Part shown: piece by piece, positions 14,017-31,257 of the stretch
Layout: every line of letters starts with the position of its first letter
Numbering within the stretch: position 1 is the first letter of the stretch
Source: a phage
Sequence record: QB023162.1
Direction: 5' to 3' (one strand)
DNA length: 40,208 bases
The notes under the pieces: model-generated
Seen by the model: only the letters and a program-made list of their open reading frames with translations
Database searches by the model: none
Told to the model about the DNA's origin: nothing
Program-made: the position numbers and the translations under genes

Positions 14017-14162
14017 TTCTTCTCTCCTGCGTAAGCTGCTTTCAGTGTTTGCATCGCAGCGAACCAGAACGCGTCAGCGGGGATACTGCTACTAAGGTTA
14101 CTAACGGCGATACGTGCCATCAGTTGTGCGTCTTTGAATGCTTCGATATCTGTGATTTTCAT
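14013..14162 (-). CDS. unlisted 49-aa ORF, first gene of a leftward transcription unit
   Basis: ATG 14162 with SD GGAG 8 nt upstream, about 30 nt downstream of a sigma70-like promoter. Confidence 0.3.
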   Translation of the reverse strand: MKITDIEAFKDAQLMARIAVSNLSSSIPADAFWFAAMQTLKAAYAGEKK

Positions 14163-14195: not shown

Positions 14196-14224
14196 AATAT
14201 AATAGGGTCTAAGGTAATAGTCAA
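14196..14224 (-). promoter_or_regulatory. sigma70-like promoter (TTGACT, 17 nt, TATATT) reading leftward
   Basis: Minus strand: -35 TTGACT is the reverse complement of 14219..14224 and -10 TATATT of 14196..14201, spacer 17 nt; overlaps a half operator TATAATAG (14198..14205). Confidence 0.5.
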
Positions 14225-14253
14225 CTAGTCATTACAGAAAATAGATAAAAAAA

Positions 14254-14278
14254 ATCCCGGCTGGGTCAGGGCCGGGAT
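14254..14278 (-). terminator. strong rho-independent terminator downstream of the lysis cassette
   Basis: ATCCCGGC/GCCGGGAT stem; on the minus strand it is followed by a run of eight to nine T. Confidence 0.65.
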
Positions 14279-14357
14279 AAAACTGGAGAGTAGAGGGATG
14301 AAGCAGGAGGTGATTTAAGTATCGTCGGATTAGTCTCAGGTGTCAATTGGTAAAATA

Positions 14358-14382
14358 AAACCCGGATTAGCGGTCCGGGTTT
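14358..14382 (-). terminator. second tandem terminator downstream of the endolysin
   Basis: AAACCCGGA-ttagcgg-TCCGGGTTT stem-loop; on the minus strand it is followed by TTTTATTTTA. Confidence 0.55.
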
Positions 14383-14509
14383 CAGTCATAAGCCCCTGAA
14401 CCCTACGCAGTCTCCACCGCTTGGGCTGCTGCTTCAGGTTTACCAGGGCTTAGTATGCAAGCACAAGCAGCGTGGAAGTAATTTTACTAAATGCCTTCGT
14501 ATTCGTCCA

Positions 14510-14995
14510 TCATTTAACGGCTCTCCCAATAGCCTCAGCCTCTTGCCACGGTTTACCGTCGAACAGCGCCAGACGCCCGGATGTACGGCGACGCAGGCCG
14601 AGTAACGGCTTGCCGTTCTGGTTGATGAACAGCGCCAGCTTGGCACGCAGTGTTGCAATATCTCCTGAGCGCAGGGCCTTGCCCGTGCCAGTAGTAGACG
14701 CAATCACGCCGGCGCCCGCGTTATAGACCAGGTCGCACACTGCATCAAACTGTGCCTGTGTCAGTGAATGGTGTCCTGCGGCATCGACCGCGGCTACTGC
14801 CTTAGCCATATCGCGATTCAGTAACAGCAAGCCCTGTCCAGGGGTGATGGTCTGTCCTGCCTTAACATGTGGGCCGTGGCTTCCGTACCCAATAGTAAGG
14901 TACTTCTCGTTCGGCGTAGCACGATACGCAGTTCCACGGAATCCCTCGAACGCGGCGGTAAAATGCAGTCCATTATCTGAAATGTTTCGAGACAC
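14510..14995 (-). CDS. endolysin, phage lysozyme (GH24-like, resembles P22 gp19)
   Basis: Recalled similarity to P22 gp19 around FEGFRGTAY...TIGYGSHG, QFDAVCDLVYNAG and the Arg-rich LLGLRRR region; GTG start with SD GGAGGA 7 nt upstream; no N-terminal transmembrane segment. Confidence 0.8.
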   Translation of the reverse strand: MSRNISDNGLHFTAAFEGFRGTAYRATPNEKYLTIGYGSHGPHVKAGQTITPGQGLLLLNRDMAKAVAAVDAAGHHSLTQAQFDAVCDLVYNAGAGVIASTTGTGKALRSGDIATLRAKLALFINQNGKPLLGLRRRTSGRLALFDGKPWQEAEAIGRAVK

Positions 14996-15245
14996 GCTTA
15001 TGTCCTCCGTATGACAGCCACGCCTGACGAATCTGGCGCAGCGCGACTAATGTGATTAATGTCCCAGGCAGCGTTGGCGACATGCCACCCTGTAACAGGT
15101 GGATACATCCGGCGGCGCAGACAATAGCGGTCAGGATATAGAGCACCCGACCGAATAGCCCGTCGTCCACGCTGGGATGATACACATTAAACAGCGATGT
15201 ACCCCCGATTGCCAGCATACCGCCGAACCAGAATAACTCATTCAT
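14973..15245 (-). CDS. holin-like / antiholin membrane protein (90 aa)
   Basis: Two to three predicted transmembrane helices; between holin and endolysin with overlaps on both sides; SD GAGGAGG. Confidence 0.45.
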   Translation of the reverse strand: MNELFWFGGMLAIGGTSLFNVYHPSVDDGLFGRVLYILTAIVCAAGCIHLLQGGMSPTLPGTLITLVALRQIRQAWLSYGGHKRVSKHFR

Positions 15246-15546
15246 CCGGGCCTCCTCGACGTGAGATGTATTCTCCGGCGACGATACCGGAGAGGCGGGA
15301 ATAGATGGGCATCCAGAGAATAGCGATAATGAATCCGAGGCCAGCTATCTCACGCTCCCCAGTAATGCCAAACCATTGCGCGGCAAGAGGTGCACCAAAC
15401 ACGGCACAGGTGAAACCAGTTGCAATAAAGCAGAAGCCATCGATAGGGCCAGAAATAACGGACTTATGTTGTCGTAGTCCGATTACCCCACCGGCTAGTG
15501 CGGCAGCCAGAAGCCAGCCTGTCACTGTTTCAGTAAATTTATCCAA
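15238..15546 (-). CDS. putative holin (102 aa, three hydrophobic segments), TTG start
   Basis: Three hydrophobic helices; first gene of the holin-endolysin cassette; SD GGAGGA 6 nt before TTG 15546, with no in-frame ATG nearby. Confidence 0.55.
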   Translation of the reverse strand: MDKFTETVTGWLLAAALAGGVIGLRQHKSVISGPIDGFCFIATGFTCAVFGAPLAAQWFGITGEREIAGLGFIIAILWMPIYSRLSGIVAGEYISRRGGPDE

Positions 15547-15552
15547 GATGAA

Positions 15553-15590
15553 TCCTCCAGGTGCGTATTAAGTATGCAGTAACTGGAGGA
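15553..15590 (-). promoter_or_regulatory. SD-sequestering stem-loop in the holin leader
   Basis: Perfect 8-bp inverted repeat TCCTCCAG (15553..15560) / CTGGAGGA (15583..15590); on the mRNA the holin SD pairs with an upstream anti-SD across a 22-nt loop. Confidence 0.4.
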
Positions 15591-15621
15591 TACCACGGGT
15601 AGGAATTATCCTAATAACGGT

Positions 15622-15903
15622 TTATTTATGACGCCAGATGTATTGTCGTCTCTGCGGTTTCGTCGGAATATCTTCATACCCCAGCGATTTCCAGTAATTA
15701 AATAACAGGTTAGCGATTGCTGCGCGTTCCTTTGTCTTGAACTCACCCAGATTCACGGCCTTCCCGCCCTGGAATCCACAGGCTCGTACCGCTTTACGCC
15801 GTTCTGCCAGCTCCTTATAAGTTGCGTTACGTGCTCGCGTCTTAACTTTCGGTGACAGCGGCGCAAGGCCGCTTCGTTTCAGGATGTCAGTTGCTAATGA
15901 CAT
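15622..15903 (-). CDS. hypothetical basic protein (93 aa)
   Basis: ORF table; SD AGGAGA upstream of ATG 15903; Lys/Arg-rich. Confidence 0.45.
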   Translation of the reverse strand: MSLATDILKRSGLAPLSPKVKTRARNATYKELAERRKAVRACGFQGGKAVNLGEFKTKERAAIANLLFNYWKSLGYEDIPTKPQRRQYIWRHK

Positions 15904-16121
15904 TATCTCTCCTGTTTACCAAGTCGCTTAGGTGAGCAGATAGCGCGTACCTCTGAATCGTTGGGCTTGTCACCCTGAAACAGGAAGTGCGCGTTCTCTG
16001 CGGCGCGTGCCGCCGACTGGCACGCCTCCATCGAATAAAACGTTTCGGATGCCGCTAGTTGCATCTGGCCCGCGGACAATACCCAGATAAATAAGATGCT
16101 GGTCATTTCTTTAACCCACAT
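15903..16121 (-). CDS. small secreted protein with N-terminal signal peptide (start at ATG 16121 or 16106)
   Basis: Hydrophobic N-terminus TSILFIWVLSAGQMQLAA followed by a polar domain with two Cys; ATGA coupling at 16103..16106. Confidence 0.4.
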   Translation of the reverse strand: MWVKEMTSILFIWVLSAGQMQLAASETFYSMEACQSAARAAENAHFLFQGDKPNDSEVRAICSPKRLGKQER

Positions 16122-16648
16122 TTAATGCACATACATGGAAACCCGACTCCGTAAAATTGCCATTCGTGTTCACACTCGCTGGATTTAGTCACGCCGCAAT
16201 TAATACAAACGGCGGGAGCCTTACCATTAACGAATCGCCAGTTATGGTGGCATTCCTGTGTATCTTCTTTGCGGCAACCAGATTGCTCAGGTCCGTGTTC
16301 ACCTACTACGTATCGCTGACCCACAGAAATGTAGCCGCCTTTGCGGATAAGTTTGTAGGCCTCTGCGTCACCTGTAGCTGTAGCAAGTCGTTTCACCAGG
16401 TCCTCAACTTGCGCTTGAAGGCGCAAAGCGTCATTACGATATGCGGACGATTGCCCGGTCATATGTGATATGTGCTCGGATTTCCTAATGTTGTCTTCCT
16501 GCAACTCCTTAATCTGTTTCGACGCATCGCGTAACCGATTCTTAAGTGCCTGCACCTCATGCGCCAGGTCTTCGCACCGGTTGTTACTTACCTGCTGCCG
16601 TAGCTGGTCAATCAGGTACTCGAATACTTCGTTTTTGTTACTCATCAT
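16103..16648 (-). CDS. coiled-coil protein with C-terminal Cys/His-rich zinc-finger-like domain (start ATG 16648; table start is TTG 16651)
   Basis: N-terminal half is heptad-rich; the C-terminal 50 aa contain nine Cys and several His, including CINCG and CIKCG. Confidence 0.5.
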   Translation of the reverse strand: MMSNKNEVFEYLIDQLRQQVSNNRCEDLAHEVQALKNRLRDASKQIKELQEDNIRKSEHISHMTGQSSAYRNDALRLQAQVEDLVKRLATATGDAEAYKLIRKGGYISVGQRYVVGEHGPEQSGCRKEDTQECHHNWRFVNGKAPAVCINCGVTKSSECEHEWQFYGVGFPCMCIKCGLKK

Positions 16649-16757
16649 CAACCCCCATTGTTATCGCTTTAGTGTCTCCGTTGCACACCGAAGTGCTGCC
16701 CATTATTTCGTAAGCATCTACCAGTTCGCCTAAAGTCCAGCTACCGTACCCGCCCAT
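16638..16757 (-). CDS. unlisted 39-aa ORF, first gene after class A promoter O2
   Basis: ATG 16757 with SD GAGAGGAGAG, 42 nt downstream of the -10 element. Confidence 0.3.
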   Translation of the reverse strand: MGGYGSWTLGELVDAYEIMGSTSVCNGDTKAITMGVDDE

Positions 16758-16785
16758 CTTCCGTCTCTCCTCTCGTTTGTGTAAA

Positions 16786-16817
16786 TGAATAGTAACCTAT
16801 TCTATCTCAGTGTACAA
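16786..16817 (-). promoter_or_regulatory. class A promoter with operator copy O2 (minus orientation)
   Basis: Palindrome TGAATAG-TAAC-CTATTCT (16786..16803); minus-strand -10 TAGAAT preceded by TTGTAC. Confidence 0.45.
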
Positions 16818-16824
16818 GTAAATT

Positions 16825-16995
16825 TTATTGGTGTTTTAAAGATAATCGTTCACCTCTAATCCAGTAGTACCTCGGGCGTCGCGCCCACTGACGCCATCGC
16901 ATAACACGGTACTTGTTGCCGTCTGACGCAACAATAAGCCCGAATCGCTTTTCTCCGTTTCTACCGGTCCAGGTTACGATGTCATTCAGTTTCAT
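16825..16995 (-). CDS. unlisted 56-aa ORF
   Basis: ATG 16995 with SD AGGAG; open frame to TAA at 16825..16827. Confidence 0.35.
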   Translation of the reverse strand: MKLNDIVTWTGRNGEKRFGLIVASDGNKYRVMRWRQWARRPRYYWIRGERLSLKHQ

Positions 16996-17065
16996 TGTTG
17001 CATCTCCTGCAATAGTCGCTTCGATTGTTGCGTTTGGTGAAATAGAACAAAAATGAGAAAAATGA

Positions 17066-17087
17066 TACGCTGCTGTGTAGCAGCGTA
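17066..17087 (-). terminator. rho-independent terminator within the leftward early block
   Basis: 9-bp stem TACGCTGCT/AGCAGCGTA with loop GTGT; on the minus strand it is followed by TCATTTTTCTCATTTTTG. Confidence 0.55.
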
Positions 17088-17098
17088 AGTCACAAAGC

Positions 17099-17116
17099 CA
17101 AATAGTAACCTATTGG
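17099..17116. promoter_or_regulatory. degenerate operator copy O3
   Basis: CAAATAG-TAAC-CTATTGG keeps the AATAG-N4-CTATT core but no usable -10; overlaps the stop of ORF 17110..17259. Confidence 0.3.
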
Positions 17117-17259
17117 CCTGTTACACCAGCACGAAATTGCACACCAGCTTTCCACGCCCGCCACGCGAGACGCGTCTTAACGTTCAGGTATTCTTTCTTT
17201 GAGCCCTTGTTAACCGACAGACCCTCGACAACGGCCCACCGTTCAAATGCTTCTCTCAT
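17110..17259 (-). CDS. unlisted 49-aa ORF
   Basis: ATG 17259 with SD GGAGGA 7 nt upstream; TAG stop at 17110..17112. Confidence 0.3.
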   Translation of the reverse strand: MREAFERWAVVEGLSVNKGSKKEYLNVKTRLAWRAWKAGVQFRAGVTGQ

Positions 17260-17262
17260 AAC

Positions 17263-17454
17263 TTAGTCCTCCAGAACTTCACATTCACGGTTACGCACGT
17301 ACAGCTCCTCGCCGCAGTGTTCGACGAAGTGTCCAAAATCATTACTTGACGTAACCTCGAACTCATCACCTATCGAAACTCCAAATTGGCGCAAAGAATG
17401 GTCGCCATACCCCGGCGGCAGCACATAATCAATATCAGTTATACGAATTCTCAT
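17263..17454 (-). CDS. hypothetical protein (63 aa from ATG 17454)
   Basis: ORF table; SD GGGAGG 8 nt before ATG 17454; TAATG overlap with the upstream gene. Confidence 0.45.
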   Translation of the reverse strand: MRIRITDIDYVLPPGYGDHSLRQFGVSIGDEFEVTSSNDFGHFVEHCGEELYVRNRECEVLED

Positions 17455-17705
17455 TAACGGCAACCTCCCTCAGAGTCGTCCGCACGAGCATCATGATTCG
17501 ATGCCGTTGTGAATGATGCGGAAACAACATTGAAGAAAATAACGGTTAAAGTCTCGCCCACAGTGTCCTCTAAATCCCATTCATCACCGTCTTCATCTAA
17601 AACGTATCGACGGCCGTCGTAATATACTCCTGACGAATATTTGTTACCTTTCACAAACCAATCCTGCACATCCTGGCTGGATTCAATACAAATTAATTCT
17701 TCCAT
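17454..17705 (-). CDS. hypothetical acidic protein (83 aa from ATG 17705)
   Basis: ORF table; ATGA overlap with the upstream gene. Confidence 0.45.
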   Translation of the reverse strand: MEELICIESSQDVQDWFVKGNKYSSGVYYDGRRYVLDEDGDEWDLEDTVGETLTVIFFNVVSASFTTASNHDARADDSEGGCR

Positions 17706-17890
17706 CACTTCGCCCCTTTGAATTTAAAATTGTTGCCGATGAGTTCTAAATTGTCGCGGAAAGCGTAACCATGTTTCTTTCGTACAAGGCCCCATATGTC
17801 TACAGCGATACTGTAGTCATCCTCGTCCTGGGTAACTATTACGTACTGTCCGCCGCGTTTCGTTTTCACCAACTGACCCTTCTTAAACAT
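17705..17890 (-). CDS. hypothetical protein (61 aa from ATG 17890), first gene after class A promoter O4
   Basis: SD AGAGGAG 8 nt upstream of ATG 17890; 44 nt downstream of the -10 element. Confidence 0.45.
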   Translation of the reverse strand: MFKKGQLVKTKRGGQYVIVTQDEDDYSIAVDIWGLVRKKHGYAFRDNLELIGNNFKFKGAK

Positions 17891-17921
17891 AACCCTCACT
17901 CCTCTGTCTCGTTCCGATAAG

Positions 17922-17953
17922 TGAATAGTATCCTATTATGTTGAGGTGTGCAA
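17922..17953 (-). promoter_or_regulatory. class A promoter with operator copy O4 (minus orientation)
   Basis: Palindrome TGAATAG-TATC-CTATTAT (17922..17939); minus-strand -10 CATAAT preceded by TTGCAC. Confidence 0.5.
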
Positions 17954-18323
17954 GAGATTAGTTACGCTGCCGTTGTGATTCTTTCGAAACTGTTGTGCCT
18001 TTATTCTTATTACTTGGTAACTAAAGGGCAGGCCTTAAGCCTGCCCAATAATCGTTACATTTTTACGGTTGCGAATCTACGGCATTTTAAGAAAATCAGA
18101 TACTTAAGAGATATGCTGCCGATGAGAATAGAGCTTGCCCAGGGCAACCGGAGATACTTAGGAAGGAAAGTTACGATAATTCTTATGTTCAGTAAGCCTG
18201 TGTTTAACCCTTTGCTTGTCGCACGGGTTAAACATTCTTACGAGGTGAACAGGAATCAAAGTAACTAAGATATAGAAGCACCTTAAACGAAGATTTTCAT
18301 AATGTCAATAGGTACGATTATGT

Positions 18324-18352
18324 TTGATTTCCCATTATTCGCAATGTATACT
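18324..18352 (+). promoter_or_regulatory. sigma70-like promoter for the rightward early operon
   Basis: TTGATT (18324..18329), 17-nt spacer, TATACT (18347..18352); 32 nt upstream of ATG 18385; no operator palindrome. Confidence 0.45.
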
Positions 18353-18384
18353 CGGTTTCGTTAACTGATAATGAGGGCTTTGGA

Positions 18385-18555
18385 ATGACACAGAATGAAG
18401 TAGCAGAGCGTATCGGGGTTACTCGTCGCACGCTGAATAACTGGTTAAAGAGTGGGAAGTTCCCGGATTGTTGTATTCGCATTATGGGCCGCCGGCAGCC
18501 AGGTACGTTTGACCCGGAGAAAGTGGAAGCGTGGATTAAGGAGAACGTAAAATGA
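18385..18555 (+). CDS. unlisted 56-aa HTH DNA-binding protein (excisionase/AlpA-like HTH)
   Basis: Translation MTQNEVAERIGVTRRTLNNWLKSGKFP... fits an Xis/MerR-type helix-turn-helix; SD GAGGG; ATGA coupling to the next gene. Confidence 0.5.
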   Translation: MTQNEVAERIGVTRRTLNNWLKSGKFPDCCIRIMGRRQPGTFDPEKVEAWIKENVK

Positions 18556-18785
18556 CCGAGTTCCAGTCACGTGTATTTACGGCGGTCGTTTCATTAACAC
18601 GTAAAAAAGGGTCGTGCAGCGTTATCGACTTGCGTCGTAGTTATTTTAAGTACTATAGTTCCGCCATTATTGAAGGGTCGTTGAAGGTGCTGGTTAAATC
18701 CGGTGTCGTGAAAAACACTGGCGGGAAATATAGCGCCGTTGCAGAAGTTCGCGGAATGACCGCTACTTTAGAAGACCTGGAATAA
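18552..18785 (+). CDS. hypothetical protein (77 aa)
   Basis: ORF table; translationally coupled to the upstream HTH gene. Confidence 0.45.
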   Translation: MTEFQSRVFTAVVSLTRKKGSCSVIDLRRSYFKYYSSAIIEGSLKVLVKSGVVKNTGGKYSAVAEVRGMTATLEDLE

Positions 18786-27521: not shown

Positions 27522-28942
27522 GTAAGTTTCAAAGGCGCGAGTACCAGAAGCTCATGACTTCGTTCATGCTACAGCATCATCGCTGTAATATTTGGGCGAG
27601 CATGGGTGCCGGGAAGACTGGCAGCGTACTGTGGGCGTTAAACAGACTGTTCCGCAACGGCCAACTTAATGATGATGACCGCGTGTTAATCCTCGCGCCG
27701 TTGCGTGTTGCGTCCGGCACATGGCCGGCAGAACAAGAGAAATGGCAATTCCCATGTCTGCGTGTCGTTGATGCAACCGGTTCAGAGAAGCGCCGCATCG
27801 CGGCGCTGGAGTCTGATGCTAACGTGGTTTGCACGAACTACGAAGTTATCGAGTGGCTGATTGACTACTACGGCAAAGACGACTGGCCTTTTACCGTTAT
27901 CGTTGCCGATGAAAGCACGAAGCTGAAATCATTCCGCAGCCGTTCTGGTGGAAGCAAGCGGGCGAAGGCGCTTAGTAAAGTGGCGTTCGGTAAGGTTAAG
28001 CGTTTCATTAACCTTACCGGTACACCGTCACCGAACGGCCTTAAGGACTTGTGGGGTCAGAACTGGTTTATCGACGCTGGAGAGCGCCTCGGTTCTTCAT
28101 ACACAGCATTCACAGACCGCTGGTTTAACTCGGTACAGAAGGGCAAATCGGCGATGGCACGTGAATACCACGCCCGCCCTGGCGCAGATAATGAGATTCA
28201 TCAGAAGATGAAAGACATTAGTCTCACGATTGACGCGGCCGAGTGGTTTGGTTGTGAAGCGCCGATTATTGTACCGGTTGAAATCGACCTACCGAAGAAG
28301 GCGCGTCAGGCGTACATCGATATGGAGGAGAAGCTATTCGCAGAACTGGAGAGCGGGGAAGTGGAAGCGGCTAACGCTGCGGCGAAGACGTCGAAGTGCC
28401 TACAGATTGCATCCGGTGCCGTGTATGTATCGGGGCCAGACGGAGAAGCAACCAAAGACTGGGAGAAAGTTCACGACACGAAACTGGATGCGCTTGAGTC
28501 GATTGTTGAGGAGTTACAGGGCGCTCCGTTATTGGTGGCCTATCAGTTTAAGCACGAACTGGAGCGCATCCTTAAGCGATTCCCGCAGGCGCAGGCGTTT
28601 GCCAAAGGTGCGAAGGGTAATAAGCAGATGGAAGCGTGGAACCGCGGGGAAATCGAAATCTTATGCGTACATCCTGCGTCAGCCGGTCATGGTTTGAATT
28701 TACAGGACGGCGGGCATCATCTGGCATTCATCTCGCAAGGCTGGAACCTTGAGCACTATTTGCAGGTTGTCGAGCGTATAGGCCCGGTCCGCCAGAAACA
28801 GGCAGGGCACGAGCGACCAGTGTTCCTCTATCACATCGTTGCTAAAGACACGCTGGACGAGGTTGTTGCCGCGCGTACAGACGAGAAGAAATCGGTGCAG
28901 GAAGAATTGCTTAATTACATGAAGAGACGAGGTAAGAAATGA
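27518..28942 (+). CDS. SNF2/DEAD-like superfamily 2 helicase
   Basis: Walker A GAGKTGS, DExx-like VIVADEST, C-terminal helicase domain; typical partner of VRR-NUC in phage genomes. Confidence 0.7.
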   Translation: MSKFQRREYQKLMTSFMLQHHRCNIWASMGAGKTGSVLWALNRLFRNGQLNDDDRVLILAPLRVASGTWPAEQEKWQFPCLRVVDATGSEKRRIAALESDANVVCTNYEVIEWLIDYYGKDDWPFTVIVADESTKLKSFRSRSGGSKRAKALSKVAFGKVKRFINLTGTPSPNGLKDLWGQNWFIDAGERLGSSYTAFTDRWFNSVQKGKSAMAREYHARPGADNEIHQKMKDISLTIDAAEWFGCEAPIIVPVEIDLPKKARQAYIDMEEKLFAELESGEVEAANAAAKTSKCLQIASGAVYVSGPDGEATKDWEKVHDTKLDALESIVEELQGAPLLVAYQFKHELERILKRFPQAQAFAKGAKGNKQMEAWNRGEIEILCVHPASAGHGLNLQDGGHHLAFISQGWNLEHYLQVVERIGPVRQKQAGHERPVFLYHIVAKDTLDEVVAARTDEKKSVQEELLNYMKRRGKK

Positions 28943-29112: not shown

Positions 29113-31257
29113 CTAAAAACCCGCACCTAAAGTACCAGCTACTGACCACCTACCCGGTGTTCCAGGGGTGACACAGTACCACAAATATGGGGTAGACTCG
29201 ACAGCATCCAGATTAAGCACCATATCACCACGTTTCCAAGCTCCACTACCATCAGGTCTTCCTGCGGCTGGCTTACCTGTTCCAAGCCAATTACCATTAT
29301 ACTGTTGATCCCCGTTTTGCGTGAATGACAGAACCTTTGGTTTAGCTCCTGAGTATCGCATCACTGATTTACATGACACCTCGCCAGTGATATAGCAGTC
29401 TGAAACAAACAGCCAAGCACGGTCTCCGCAGTTAACATCCCCCAGTATCGAGGAGCTAGTCAGATGAATTTCAGTGAATGTCGGTGCAAATAGCGCAGTA
29501 ATCCCGATGTTCCTCAACGAAGAGTTGGATATTCTCAGCTCTTTCGGTGCACCATCATCACTACCAAAATCAATAACGGAACCTGGCGCATCCGACGATA
29601 AGGTACACTGATTAAAGGTCAATGAGGCATTCCACGCACCCCACGCGCCTCCTGCATGAGATATAAGGCAACCATCAAATTCTACCAGCCCTGTACTCTC
29701 CGTTCCTGTTACGAAAATCGGCTCTGAACTGGATGTTTTATACACATTGCATTTTATAAATTTAGCTTTAGCACCAGAGTTCTTCATAAACCTCTTATCT
29801 GTTTTGAAAGTACAGTTTATAAAAGTTGAGGTTTCAAGGACATTCCAAACGGCAACAGCACATTGCAGCAGGTTGTGGGTATTAGAACCGGAGTTATACT
29901 CAAACACGCTATTCATTACAGTAACTACGCCACACAACTCTGTGTGTATCGGTCGGTCATATCCGTAAACATACGCATTATTAATGCTAATATTCCTGGG
30001 GTCTGGCTTGCCTGTCGGGCTATACCCATCAACAACTATGCCACATCTACCACCACGTGAATTATTCCCGGACTCAACACGAATGTTATCAATGGATACG
30101 TTAGTGCTCCCATACCATACAATCAACCCATCACCCCAATTCTCTAGCTGTGAGCTAGTAAATCCTTTATCAGACAAAGGAGAGCAATCTTTCAGGGTTA
30201 TTTGATTAATACACCCATTCTGGCAATTAGATACATTAATTCCTTGCCGTTGCGCTTTCTCAACATAGACATTCTCCAGAGAGAAATTAGTAGTGTTGCG
30301 CAGGTTTATACCGATTGCGTAATCGTTCGCTTTGATGCTTATGTTCTTTAAATGGACATTAGCGAGAGAACCAGATGTTCCACCGGCAAAATTCGGGGTG
30401 TTTATAGCCGCCATTTCGCTGCCGTTTGTTACATCTGAAAGGGTGAAAACCGGCCCCATCCAGTTGAGTGTAGAATCTCTAAAATCTATATTTGTGTTGG
30501 AAGATAAAACCCAATCGCTAGATATGTTAATTATAGATTTTTCTGGAAAATACAAATCTACAAACGGTGCCGATGCCATAGCATCAAGAACAGGCTTAGC
30601 ATCAGCCATGTTGTTTTCGAAGCCAAAGTTGTTTGCGCTTCTAACATCATTACCGTTTAAAAGACCAATATTGCGCCAGAGAACGTCAGATGTAGGGGCT
30701 GGGTCAATATTCTTAGGGAAATTTCCGGTCCAGACATACCAATACCCGTCGCTGGCCTGAACAGCTTCTCTGAATTCATTTACAACACCCCCCGTTGTAA
30801 ATGAGTATTTCTTAAGAAAATTCACGAAATACCCATCTGAAATTAAATTAACACCAAGCGGTGCTTCCAGTTCCTGCCTGAGATTTGGGTCCGTCTGCGG
30901 TTCCCAATCCGCGCCCCCTACTGGGTTAAAGGACGCTGGAACAACAACCGGCAACGTACCCGCGTACGAGTACCATGTTTTACTTACAGGGTCGTAGACA
31001 ACTTTATTGCGGTCGTTAACCGCTAACGTGCCCCCAGTGGAAAAGTCCCATGACACCGGAGAAAATCCAGCATCGCGCAACACGGCAGGGAGTGTCTTCT
31101 GCGTCTGCCCTGTAACCTGATTTGTTGCGTAATCGATATCAGCGCCCCCCGCAACCCCACCGGATTTACCAGTGATAACCTCGGCCTCGAAAATCTGGTG
31201 TTTCTTGGCGGTTTGTAAGTCCGCCAGGCTTAAAACGTCACCGCATCCGCTTGACAT
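29113..31257 (-). CDS. tailspike / receptor-binding depolymerase with predicted right-handed beta-helix
   Basis: 714 aa; last gene of the tail module; Asn/Gly/Ser/Thr-rich periodic segments typical of pectate-lyase-like beta-helices; SD AGAGGA. Confidence 0.6.
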   Translation of the reverse strand: MSSGCGDVLSLADLQTAKKHQIFEAEVITGKSGGVAGGADIDYATNQVTGQTQKTLPAVLRDAGFSPVSWDFSTGGTLAVNDRNKVVYDPVSKTWYSYAGTLPVVVPASFNPVGGADWEPQTDPNLRQELEAPLGVNLISDGYFVNFLKKYSFTTGGVVNEFREAVQASDGYWYVWTGNFPKNIDPAPTSDVLWRNIGLLNGNDVRSANNFGFENNMADAKPVLDAMASAPFVDLYFPEKSIINISSDWVLSSNTNIDFRDSTLNWMGPVFTLSDVTNGSEMAAINTPNFAGGTSGSLANVHLKNISIKANDYAIGINLRNTTNFSLENVYVEKAQRQGINVSNCQNGCINQITLKDCSPLSDKGFTSSQLENWGDGLIVWYGSTNVSIDNIRVESGNNSRGGRCGIVVDGYSPTGKPDPRNISINNAYVYGYDRPIHTELCGVVTVMNSVFEYNSGSNTHNLLQCAVAVWNVLETSTFINCTFKTDKRFMKNSGAKAKFIKCNVYKTSSSEPIFVTGTESTGLVEFDGCLISHAGGAWGAWNASLTFNQCTLSSDAPGSVIDFGSDDGAPKELRISNSSLRNIGITALFAPTFTEIHLTSSSILGDVNCGDRAWLFVSDCYITGEVSCKSVMRYSGAKPKVLSFTQNGDQQYNGNWLGTGKPAAGRPDGSGAWKRGDMVLNLDAVESTPYLWYCVTPGTPGRWSVAGTLGAGF

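What the first reader, a model, noticed from the sequence alone, without database searches (positions are those of the whole stretch)
15544..15590. Holin with TTG start codon and SD-sequestering hairpin
The first lysis gene starts at TTG 15546 with no in-frame ATG nearby. Its SD GGAGGA (15553..15558) is the 3' arm of a perfect 8-bp inverted repeat, paired with TCCTCCAG read from 15583..15590 across a 22-nt loop. That structure would occlude the ribosome binding site. The combination suggests tight translational throttling of the holin and could set lysis timing.
Basis: seen in the sequence. Interest (0 to 1): 0.5.

Follow-up and report, generated by a model that had tools for sequence, protein, structure and literature searches.

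The report
Conserved hairpin masking holin ribosome site
The first lysis gene of this Kagunavirus phage starts with TTG and its ribosome-binding site is locked in an RNA hairpin conserved across four phage genera, probably so that only transcripts started inside the hairpin can make the holin, much as in the classic T4 lysozyme gene.

Summary
On the minus strand the class-I holin (15546..15238) starts at TTG. Its SD GGAGGA (15558..15553) lies in the 3' arm of a perfect inverted repeat, which is 9 bp rather than 8 (15591..15583 / 15560..15552, 22-nt loop, -14.2 kcal/mol).

A 9-bp repeat alone is not rare (about 5 seeds expected per window), but comparison shows it is real. The leader is about 10-20 times less variable than holin synonymous sites. 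TTG is invariant in about 120 Kagunavirus loci. Homologous holin genes (phrog_2359) of Jerseyvirus, Cornellvirus, a Klebsiella Guernseyvirinae phage and Dhillonvirus keep a hairpin with the SD in the 3' arm. These hairpins carry compensatory and G.U changes (5 of 10 pairs changed on both sides; 0/500 shuffles reach the covariation score).

The "throttle" reading is only partly supported. Stability ranges from -9.7 to -21 kcal/mol, which fits an on/off block better than a tuner. In sister genera the hairpin is also a canonical terminator.

A -10-like motif (TGnTAnnnT in four genera, TATACT in the Klebsiella phage) overlaps or abuts the 5' arm, so a transcript from it would lack the anti-SD. My best model is therefore T4 gene-e-type insulation against read-through transcripts, with TTG as a modest extra brake. 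The promoter is inferred, not shown.

The parts
15238..15546 (-). Class-I holin gene (102 aa), first gene of the lysis cassette
   Evidence: ORF. phrog_2359 holin, E 3.5e-29. Same CDS annotated in phage K1G.
15544..15546 (-). TTG start codon
   Evidence: In-frame TAA 8 codons upstream with no start codon between. TTG in all 41 IMG/VR and K1G loci, and in all 38 metagenome loci found with a pattern that also allowed ATG or GTG. Aligns with the ATG of Dhillonvirus homologues.
15553..15558 (-). Shine-Dalgarno GGAGGA, 6 nt upstream of the TTG
   Evidence: Sequence. Paired with probability about 1.0 in the full leader.
15552..15560 (-). 3' arm of the hairpin (CUGGAGGAU), containing the SD
   Evidence: Nucleotide diversity 0.0 among 41 distinct contigs.
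15561..15582 (-). 22-nt loop (UUACUGCAUACUUAAUACGCAC); forms most of the predicted 5' UTR if transcription starts at about 15580
   Evidence: Diversity 0.046 within Kagunavirus, yet a different sequence in L057, LSPA1, Jersey and Cornellvirus.
15583..15591 (-). 5' arm of the hairpin (AUCCUCCAG), the anti-SD
   Evidence: Covariation with the 3' arm across genera. G.U-preserving changes in L039 and L057.
15587..15595 (-). Extended -10-like motif TGGTATCCT overlapping the 5' arm; predicted +1 at about 15580 (inferred, not shown)
   Evidence: TGnTAnnnT in register in every complete locus of four genera. TGATATAGT or TGATATAAT in Dhillonvirus.
15600..15614 (-). Upstream conserved block with the small palindrome TAGGATAATTCCTA; includes the -35-like TTAGGA (15614..15609, 16-nt spacer)
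   Evidence: Related GGATAAATCC block in Jersey and Cornellvirus leaders. Function not tested.
15547..15621 (-). Whole 75-nt intergenic leader
   Evidence: Present in 121 phage records whichever gene lies upstream. Far less variable than holin synonymous sites.
15622..15903 (-). Upstream same-strand gene (93 aa, unknown function); possible source of read-through transcripts
   Evidence: phrog_9632. Replaced by an HslV-like peptidase gene in some Kagunaviruses.
14973..15245 (-). Second holin-like gene (90 aa), overlapping the end of the first holin gene by 8 nt
   Evidence: phrog_2508.
14510..14995 (-). Endolysin (GTG start)
   Evidence: PF00959, E 9.6e-26.
14358..14382 (-). Intrinsic-terminator-like hairpin closing the lysis cassette (AAACCCGGA..TCCGGGTTT, then TATTTT)

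Best explanation
The leader of the holin gene encodes a conserved RNA hairpin. Its 5' arm (AUCCUCCAG) is an anti-SD that pairs with the holin SD.

Any transcript that enters from the upstream same-strand genes carries both arms. On such RNA the holin ribosome-binding site is shut. In sister genera, where a U tract follows the hairpin, the RNA is also terminated just before the start codon.

A weak sigma-70-type extended -10 element (TGGTATCCT) overlaps the 5' arm. It would start transcription at about 15580, just past the anti-SD. That would give a 34-nt leader with a free SD, from which the holin, holin-II and endolysin are translated.

The hairpin is therefore an insulator that keeps the lysis cassette silent on read-through RNA. 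The logic is the one established for T4 gene e (lysozyme). The genus-wide TTG start adds a modest constitutive brake on the productive mRNA.

Status of each step:
- Shown: the hairpin, its conservation and covariation, SD occlusion by thermodynamic prediction, and the TTG start.
- Inferred: the promoter and its start site, the existence of read-through transcripts, and the size of the effects.
For: 1. Structure. The repeat is a 9-bp perfect stem of -14.2 kcal/mol. The SD is paired with p about 1.0. Opening the SD-to-start region costs 13.9 kcal/mol in the full leader and 4.9 if the RNA starts after the 5' arm.

2. Purifying selection. Diversity is 0.016 in the 5' arm, 0.046 in the loop and 0.0 in the 3' arm, against 0.357 at holin third-codon positions.

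3. Covariation.
- On a structure-blind MAFFT alignment of Kagunavirus, L057, Jerseyvirus and Cornellvirus leaders, 89.2% of cells are paired.
- 5 of 10 pairs are changed on both sides.
- The covariation score is 0.406, against 0.159 +/- 0.031 in shuffles (0/500 reach it). Slid controls give at most 0.153.
- The holins themselves have diverged to 22% identity but belong to the same phrog_2359 family.
- Klebsiella phage VLCpiS11a has CCCCCGAAU/AUUCGGGGG. Dhillonvirus has GUCCCAGUGAG/CUUACUGGGAC.

4. RNA rather than DNA. L039, L057 and Cornellvirus variants keep pairing through G.U. On the other strand these would be C.A mismatches.

5. In all nine representatives the SD is paired with p >= 0.91 in the full leader.

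6. Promoter-like element.
- T, G, T, A of TGnTA and the final T are invariant in alignment A3, while the n position shows all four bases.
- TGnTAnnnT is in register in every complete locus.
- Dhillonvirus has TGATATAGT, and one lineage has the perfect TGATATAAT at the cost of a stem pair.
- VLCpiS11a has TATACT.
- In Cornellvirus, TAAT is kept although it lies outside the stem.
- In every lineage the C-rich anti-SD core lies upstream of the predicted +1.

7. Context.
- The cassette is bracketed. Same-strand genes lie upstream, and the scan found no terminator-like site between 17066 and the leader. A terminator follows the endolysin.
- The conserved block starts right after whichever gene lies upstream.

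8. The T4 gene e precedent is documented in PMC3014915.
Against: - No transcription start-site or expression data exist for these genera.
- The Kagunavirus -10 (TATCCT, 4/6) and -35 (TTAGGA, 3/6) are weak, and the consensus scan did not call them.
- TGnTAnnnT with at least 4/6 matches occurs 28 times on the two strands of the window.
- Part of the -10-like hexamer is simply the complement of the SD.
- The predicted gain in RBS accessibility is small in Jersey (11.5 vs 8.4 kcal/mol) and L057 (4.2 vs 3.4).
- The holin RBS is only 3rd of 60 in the window for opening cost.
- The independent lineages are few, so shuffle statistics overstate significance.
- The high loop conservation within Kagunavirus is not explained.
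Confidence: 0.5

Rival explanations
1. Constitutive translational throttle. All holin mRNA carries the hairpin. Breathing of the stem plus the weak TTG start sets a low, tuned rate of holin synthesis that times lysis.
For: The SD is sequestered. TTG is invariant in the genus. Holin translation rate is known to shift lambda lysis time (abstract of 10.1101/2025.05.14.654169).
Against: Stability varies from -9.7 to -21.2 kcal/mol among Kagunaviruses with an identical SD and TTG, and reaches -19.8 in HK578. That is too strong and too variable for a tuner, and would nearly abolish translation. It leaves unexplained the conserved TGnTA outside the stem and the U tracts in sister genera.
Confidence: 0.2
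2. The hairpin is primarily an intrinsic terminator or attenuator ending the upstream operon. The SD overlap is incidental, and late expression needs antitermination or partial read-through.
For: In HK578 the consensus scan flags the element as terminator-like: 12 pairs, 6-nt loop, U tract. Jersey (UUUUUAUU), L057 (UUUAUUUU) and VLCpiS11a (UCCUUUUU) also have U-rich tails. More distant relatives (MED16, Scapp) have a separate terminator upstream of the holin.
Against: In the window the loop is 22 nt and the tail is UUCAUCUU. Cornellvirus has no U tract at all (UCCUCUCACCG), yet keeps the hairpin with the SD in its 3' arm. The feature common to all lineages is SD pairing, not the U tract. Read-through RNA would still have a closed RBS.
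Confidence: 0.17
3. Activation by a leader mini-ORF. Translation starting at the GTG or ATG that contains the TG of TGnTA would run through the 5' arm and melt the hairpin, coupling holin translation to it.
For: An NTG sits at this position: GTG in Kagunavirus and Dhillonvirus, ATG in L057 and Jersey.
Against: There is no SD before it. In Cornellvirus it is CTG. In Dhillonvirus the ORF is GTG-ATA-TAG and stops before the stem. VLCpiS11a has none.
Confidence: 0.04
4. A DNA palindrome bound by a regulatory protein (an operator), or a chance repeat.
For: It is a perfect palindrome, and 9-bp repeats are not rare.
Against: Substitutions preserve pairing through G.U, which has meaning only in RNA of the holin-sense strand. 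Arm sequences differ completely between genera while complementarity and position relative to the SD are kept. Conservation is far above neutral.
Confidence: 0.04

Closest known systems
Bacteriophage T4 gene e (lysozyme) leader; also T4 soc, 49 and I-TevI
   Same: A lysis-gene RBS is sequestered in a hairpin on long early or read-through transcripts. [quoted passage not shown] The geometry predicted here is the same in five lineages.
   Different: The gene is a holin, not an endolysin. The putative promoter is a host sigma-70 extended -10 type, not a T4 late promoter (TATAAATA with gp55). In sister genera the hairpin doubles as an intrinsic terminator. Nothing here is experimentally shown. There is no sequence homology.
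Lambda S holin translation-initiation region (sdi stem-loop, dual start)
   Same: RNA structure at a holin initiation region influences holin translation and hence lysis timing (own knowledge; for the link between translation rate and timing).
   Different: Lambda's structure partitions ribosomes between two closely spaced Met codons, giving antiholin or holin. Here there is a single TTG start, no Met-Lys-Met motif (the protein begins MDKFTETV), and the whole SD is buried.
Rho-independent terminators, including promoter-coupled terminators (bioRxiv 10.64898/2026.08.19.745784)
   Same: A stem-loop plus U tract sits between tandem transcription units, with terminator and promoter sharing DNA. 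The Dhillonvirus and Jersey versions fit a terminator.
   Different: In that work the -10 lies downstream of the T tract and the start site is about 10 bp after the termination site. Here the -10 overlaps the 5' arm and the start falls inside the hairpin. The window's own version has a 22-nt loop and a broken U tract.
General SD-occluding hairpins (for example the MS2 coat-gene RBS hairpin series of de Smit and van Duin; RNA thermometers)
   Same: Expression depends on the free energy of a hairpin that contains the SD (own knowledge).
   Different: No Rfam family matches. A stability of -14 to -21 kcal/mol is far beyond thermometer or tuner ranges.

Membership tests
T4 gene-e-type insulation (RBS hairpin with a promoter inside its 5' strand) | SD and/or start codon paired in a stable helix on transcripts that include the full leader | tested here: met
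   SD paired with p about 1.0; opening cost 13.9 kcal/mol; covariation support.
T4 gene-e-type insulation (RBS hairpin with a promoter inside its 5' strand) | A promoter positioned so that its transcripts lack the 5' strand of the helix | tested here: inconclusive
   TGnTAnnnT is conserved in register in four genera and TATACT in a fifth lineage, with the predicted +1 after the anti-SD core. The motif is weak in the window and there are no start-site data.
T4 gene-e-type insulation (RBS hairpin with a promoter inside its 5' strand) | Longer transcripts from upstream promoters actually read into the gene | not testable with these tools
   There are same-strand upstream genes, and no terminator-like site between 17066 and the leader. 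No RNA data.
T4 gene-e-type insulation (RBS hairpin with a promoter inside its 5' strand) | Measured difference in translation between long and short transcripts | not testable with these tools
   Only a predicted difference in opening energy: 13.9 vs 4.9 kcal/mol.
Intrinsic (Rho-independent) terminator | G+C-rich stem with a short loop (3-8 nt) | tested here: not met
   Window: 9-bp stem but a 22-nt loop, not called by the scan. Met in HK578 (12 pairs, loop 6).
Intrinsic (Rho-independent) terminator | Uninterrupted U tract immediately after the stem | tested here: inconclusive
   Window tail is UUCAUCUU, 5 U of 8 but interrupted. Clear U tracts in HK578, Jersey, L057 and VLCpiS11a. None in Cornellvirus.
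Lambda-type dual-start holin/antiholin motif | Two in-frame start codons 1-3 codons apart, with a basic residue between them | tested here: not met
   The N-terminus is M(TTG)-D-K-F-T-E-T-V. The next candidate is a GTG at codon 8 without an SD.
Holin family phrog_2359 | Profile match over the full length | tested here: met
   E 3.5e-29, residues 1-93. Jersey, Cornellvirus and HK578 holins match the same family.
Curated RNA families (riboswitch, thermometer, leader) | Covariance-model match in Rfam 15 | tested here: not met
   No match at E <= 1 in 14400-18600.

The most novel reading that the evidence does not exclude
A compact, portable three-in-one control module sits in front of phrog_2359 holin genes across Guernseyvirinae and Dhillonvirus. 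One 40-50-nt element would act as terminator of the upstream operon, as anti-SD lock on any RNA that reads through, and as promoter whose start lies inside its own hairpin. The lysis cassette would then be expressed only from its own promoter. The start codon (TTG, GTG or ATG) and the U tract would be retuned genus by genus.
Probability: 0.4. Interest if true: 0.6.

Novelty: new member of a known kind. Interest (0 to 1): 0.45.

Why it matters
Holin timing decides burst size and phage fitness. Kagunavirus, Jerseyvirus and Dhillonvirus phages are among the most often isolated candidates for E. coli and Salmonella phage therapy.

If the model is right, it has three consequences:
- It explains how a virulent siphovirus that uses host RNA polymerase keeps a lethal membrane protein silent on read-through RNA.
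- It extends a mechanism known from T4 to unrelated phages and to holins.
- It gives a small, well-defined element (about 50 nt) for engineering lysis time or for insulating toxic genes in synthetic constructs.

It also warns annotators that the holin in these genera really does start at TTG or GTG.

Tried and rejected
- Chance. A single 9-bp repeat is not significant. Chance was rejected only because of conservation and covariation.
- Rfam. No family matches.
- A repeated late-promoter motif elsewhere in the window. The leader block is unique. TGNTATCCT occurs 3 times against 0.73 expected, and the other two copies are on the other strand.
- Prophage or bacterial copies. None found in genome contigs.
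- One structure string covering both Kagunavirus and Dhillonvirus. MAFFT put the two stems one column out of register. The formal pair count was therefore done on Guernseyvirinae only, and Dhillonvirus and VLCpiS11a were compared by eye.
It is a 22%-identical member of the same PHROG.
- Leader mini-ORF coupling. Rejected (see rivals).
- Coupling to the upstream gene. Its stop codon (15624..15622) lies 31 nt before the 5' arm, too far for a terminating ribosome to open the stem (inference).
- Promoter-coupled-terminator geometry of the 2026 preprint. It does not fit.
- Literature searches for start-site or transcriptome data, or for any earlier description of this leader. Nothing found.

Full report
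WHAT IS THERE

The window is a Kagunavirus (K1G-like siphovirus, Guernseyvirinae), about 90% identical to Escherichia phage vB_EcoS_XY1 over the lysis region.

The lysis cassette is on the minus strand:
- holin-I, 15546..15238 (phrog_2359)
- holin-II, 15245..14973 (phrog_2508)
- endolysin, 14995..14510 (PF00959)

Upstream on the same strand lies a 93-aa gene that ends at 15622. This leaves a 75-nt leader, 15621..15547.

Read on the minus strand, the end of the leader is:
...CCGTGGT[ATCCTCCAG]TTACTGCATACTTAATACGCAC[CTGGAGGAT]TCATC-TTG-GAT-AAA.

The repeat is 9 bp rather than 8.

THE START CODON

- An in-frame TAA lies 8 codons upstream of the TTG, with no start codon between.
- The protein N-terminus MDK aligns with the ATG-started MDK of Dhillonvirus homologues.
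- TTG is present in all 41 IMG/VR and K1G loci.
- It is also present in all 38 metagenome loci retrieved with a pattern that allowed ATG, GTG or TTG.

IS IT MORE THAN CHANCE?

From one sequence, only weakly:
- The window holds 16 seeds (9 distinct repeats) of perfect 9-bp inverted repeats with loops of 3-30 nt, against 4.8 +/- 2.9 in shuffles.
- The holin RBS is 3rd of 60 rough gene starts in opening cost: 11.9 kcal/mol against a mean of 6.4, sd 3.05.

The hairpin alone folds at -14.2 to -14.3 kcal/mol, z -4.15. In the read-through leader the SD is paired with probability about 1.0.

COMPARATIVE EVIDENCE

The leader block occurs in 121 phage records, all Kagunavirus-like. It starts immediately after whichever gene lies upstream, either the 93-aa gene or an HslV-like peptidase gene.

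Among 41 distinct contigs, nucleotide diversity is as follows:

| Region | Diversity |
|---|---|
| 5' arm | 0.016 |
| Loop | 0.046 |
| 3' arm | 0.0 |
| Spacer | 0.029 |
| Holin third-codon positions | 0.357 |

Variants within the genus mostly preserve or extend the stem:
- L039: A-U becomes G.U.
- L025: the stem grows to 11 bp.
- LSPA1: 13-14 bp, -21.2 kcal/mol.
- L057 (holin 68% identical): the loop is replaced and two pairs become G.U, at -13.9 kcal/mol.
- L147: the one exception, which breaks pair 8 (-9.7 kcal/mol).

The holins of Jerseyvirus, Cornellvirus (FSL SP-031), the Klebsiella phage VLCpiS11a and Dhillonvirus belong to the same PHROG, although identity falls to 22%. All have a hairpin at the same place with the SD in the 3' arm:

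| Lineage | Stem (5' arm / 3' arm) | Tail and start codon |
|---|---|---|
| Jerseyvirus | AAUCUCCGAA / UUCGGAGAUU | UUUUAUU-GUG |
| Cornellvirus | CUCCGUAUG / UAUACGGAG | UCCUCUCACCG-AUG |
| VLCpiS11a | CCCCCGAAU / AUUCGGGGG | UCCUUUUUG-AUG |
| Dhillonvirus | GUCCCAGUGAG / CUUACUGGGAC | UUUUUU-AUG |

On a structure-blind MAFFT alignment of 12 Guernseyvirinae leaders:
- The ten-pair helix has 89.2% of cells paired.
- Five pairs are changed on both sides.
- The covariation score is 0.406, against 0.159 +/- 0.031 in shuffles (0 of 500 reach it).
- Slid registers give at most 0.153.

One column pair shows G-C, A-U and U-A in the three genera. The G.U variants mean the structure is selected in RNA of the holin-sense strand, not as a DNA palindrome.

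More distant relatives (Pantoea phage MED16, Serratia phage Scapp) instead have a separate terminator about 45-60 nt upstream.

WHAT THE HAIRPIN DOES

In all nine representatives the SD is paired with p >= 0.91 in the full leader.

The stabilities, -9.7 to -21.2 kcal/mol, differ widely between phages that share the same SD and start codon. By the established relation between RBS-hairpin stability and expression (de Smit and van Duin; my own knowledge), they correspond to near-complete silencing. That argues for an on/off block rather than a calibrated throttle.

Three points bear on termination:
- In HK578 the consensus scan flags the element as terminator-like, and it abuts the ATG.
- Jersey, L057 and VLCpiS11a also have U-rich tails.
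- Cornellvirus has none, and the window's tail (UUCAUCUU after a 22-nt loop) is poor.

What all lineages share is therefore SD occlusion, not termination.

If every holin mRNA carried such a hairpin, little holin could be made. A route to hairpin-free mRNA is needed.

THE PROMOTER INFERENCE

Just 5' of, and overlapping, the 5' arm every lineage has a -10-like element:

| Lineage | Element |
|---|---|
| Kagunavirus | TGG/TGC-TATCCT |
| Jerseyvirus | TGC/TGT-TAATCT |
| Cornellvirus | TGA-TAATCT, TGC-TAACCT |
| Dhillonvirus | TGA-TATAGT |
| VLCpiS11a | TATACT (no TG) |

Supporting observations:
- One Dhillonvirus lineage has the perfect TGA-TATAAT, at the cost of the outermost stem pair.
- In alignment A3, T, G, T, A and the final T are invariant, while the n position shows all four bases. 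That is the pattern expected of an extended -10.
- In Cornellvirus, Dhillonvirus and VLCpiS11a these bases lie outside the stem, so pairing does not explain them.
- A start 7 nt downstream of the hexamer falls at or just after the anti-SD core in every lineage. In the window this is 15580, giving a 34-nt 5' UTR.

Starting there lowers the SD-to-start opening cost:

| Representative | Full leader (kcal/mol) | From predicted +1 (kcal/mol) |
|---|---|---|
| Window | 13.9 | 4.9 |
| HK578 | 18.4 | 3.4 |
| Jersey | 11.5 | 8.4 |
| L057 | 4.2 | 3.4 |

The cassette is also closed by a terminator at 14382..14358, so it looks like a self-contained unit. This is the design shown experimentally for T4 gene e and inferred for soc, 49 and I-TevI (PMC3014915).

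CAVEATS

- The Kagunavirus hexamers are weak. The scan does not call them, and similar 9-mers occur 28 times in the window.
- Part of the hexamer is simply the complement of the SD.
- No start-site or transcriptome data were found.
- The loop's high conservation within the genus remains unexplained.
- The independent lineages are few.

VERDICT

- The hairpin and the TTG start are real, conserved features.
- The "translational throttle" reading is partly right but probably misses the main logic.
- The closest known system is the T4 lysozyme leader. Membership in that class is met for RBS occlusion and unproven for the internal promoter.
- Novelty: a new member of a known kind. It is interesting mainly because the module spans four genera and appears to merge terminator, anti-SD and promoter in about 50 nt.

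Noticed in passing
window 14382..14198 (minus strand): Downstream of the endolysin there is an alternating array. First a terminator-like hairpin (AAACCCGGA..TCCGGGTTT, then TATTTT). Next a near-consensus promoter, TTGACA-17-GATACT (about 14346..14318). About 45 nt later a second strong terminator (ATCCCGGC..GCCGGGAT, then T8; about 14275..14245). Finally TTGACT-17-TATATT (about 14226..14198), ahead of the ATG at 14162. A promoter followed so closely by a terminator recalls lambda pR'-tR'. Jersey has the same layout, with an annotated promoter.
   Followed up: partly
window 15600..15613 (minus strand); L159-L172 about 60-75 nt upstream of the holin start: A small palindromic block sits at the 5' edge of the leader: TAGGATAATTCCTA in the window, GGATAAATCC in Jerseyvirus and Cornellvirus, GATTAATCC in VLCpiS11a. 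It is conserved across genera although its distance to the hairpin varies. It could be a regulator binding site or a promoter-upstream element.
   Followed up: no
window 15561..15582: The 22-nt hairpin loop is almost invariant within Kagunavirus (diversity 0.046 against 0.357 at synonymous sites) but is freely replaced in L057, LSPA1 and other genera. The first 12 holin codons also show reduced third-position diversity (0.114). No explanation tested.
   Followed up: partly
L057 (ENA contig, holin at 1501-1812): A divergent Kagunavirus-like phage (holin 68% identical) lacks the second holin-like gene. Its endolysin follows the holin directly.
   Followed up: no
window 15622..15903 and relatives: The gene immediately upstream of the leader is mosaic. 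It is a 93-aa protein of unknown function (phrog_9632) in the window and an HslV-family peptidase gene in other Kagunaviruses, with the conserved leader starting right at the junction.
   Followed up: no
window 14973..15245 and 14510..14995: The holin-II ATG overlaps the end of holin-I by 8 nt. The endolysin uses a GTG start that overlaps holin-II by 23 nt. The holin-II RBS also has a high predicted opening cost (10.85 kcal/mol), which suggests translational coupling along the cassette.
   Followed up: no
window 27988..28019, 30776..30804, 18201..18234, 17066..17087: Other perfect inverted repeats: a 12-bp repeat (CGGTAAGGTTAA/TTAACCTTACCG) inside the 474-aa ORF; an 11-bp repeat at 30776; a 10-bp repeat (TGTTTAACCC/GGGTTAAACA) near the divergent early region, a possible operator; and a terminator-like 9-bp stem at 17066-17087.
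   Followed up: no
L175 (Serratia phage Scapp) 420-482: A distant phrog_2359-like holin is also annotated with a TTG start. It follows a C-rich tract (CCCCCTCCCCCC) that could pair with its GGGG SD, and a separate annotated terminator lies upstream.
   Followed up: no
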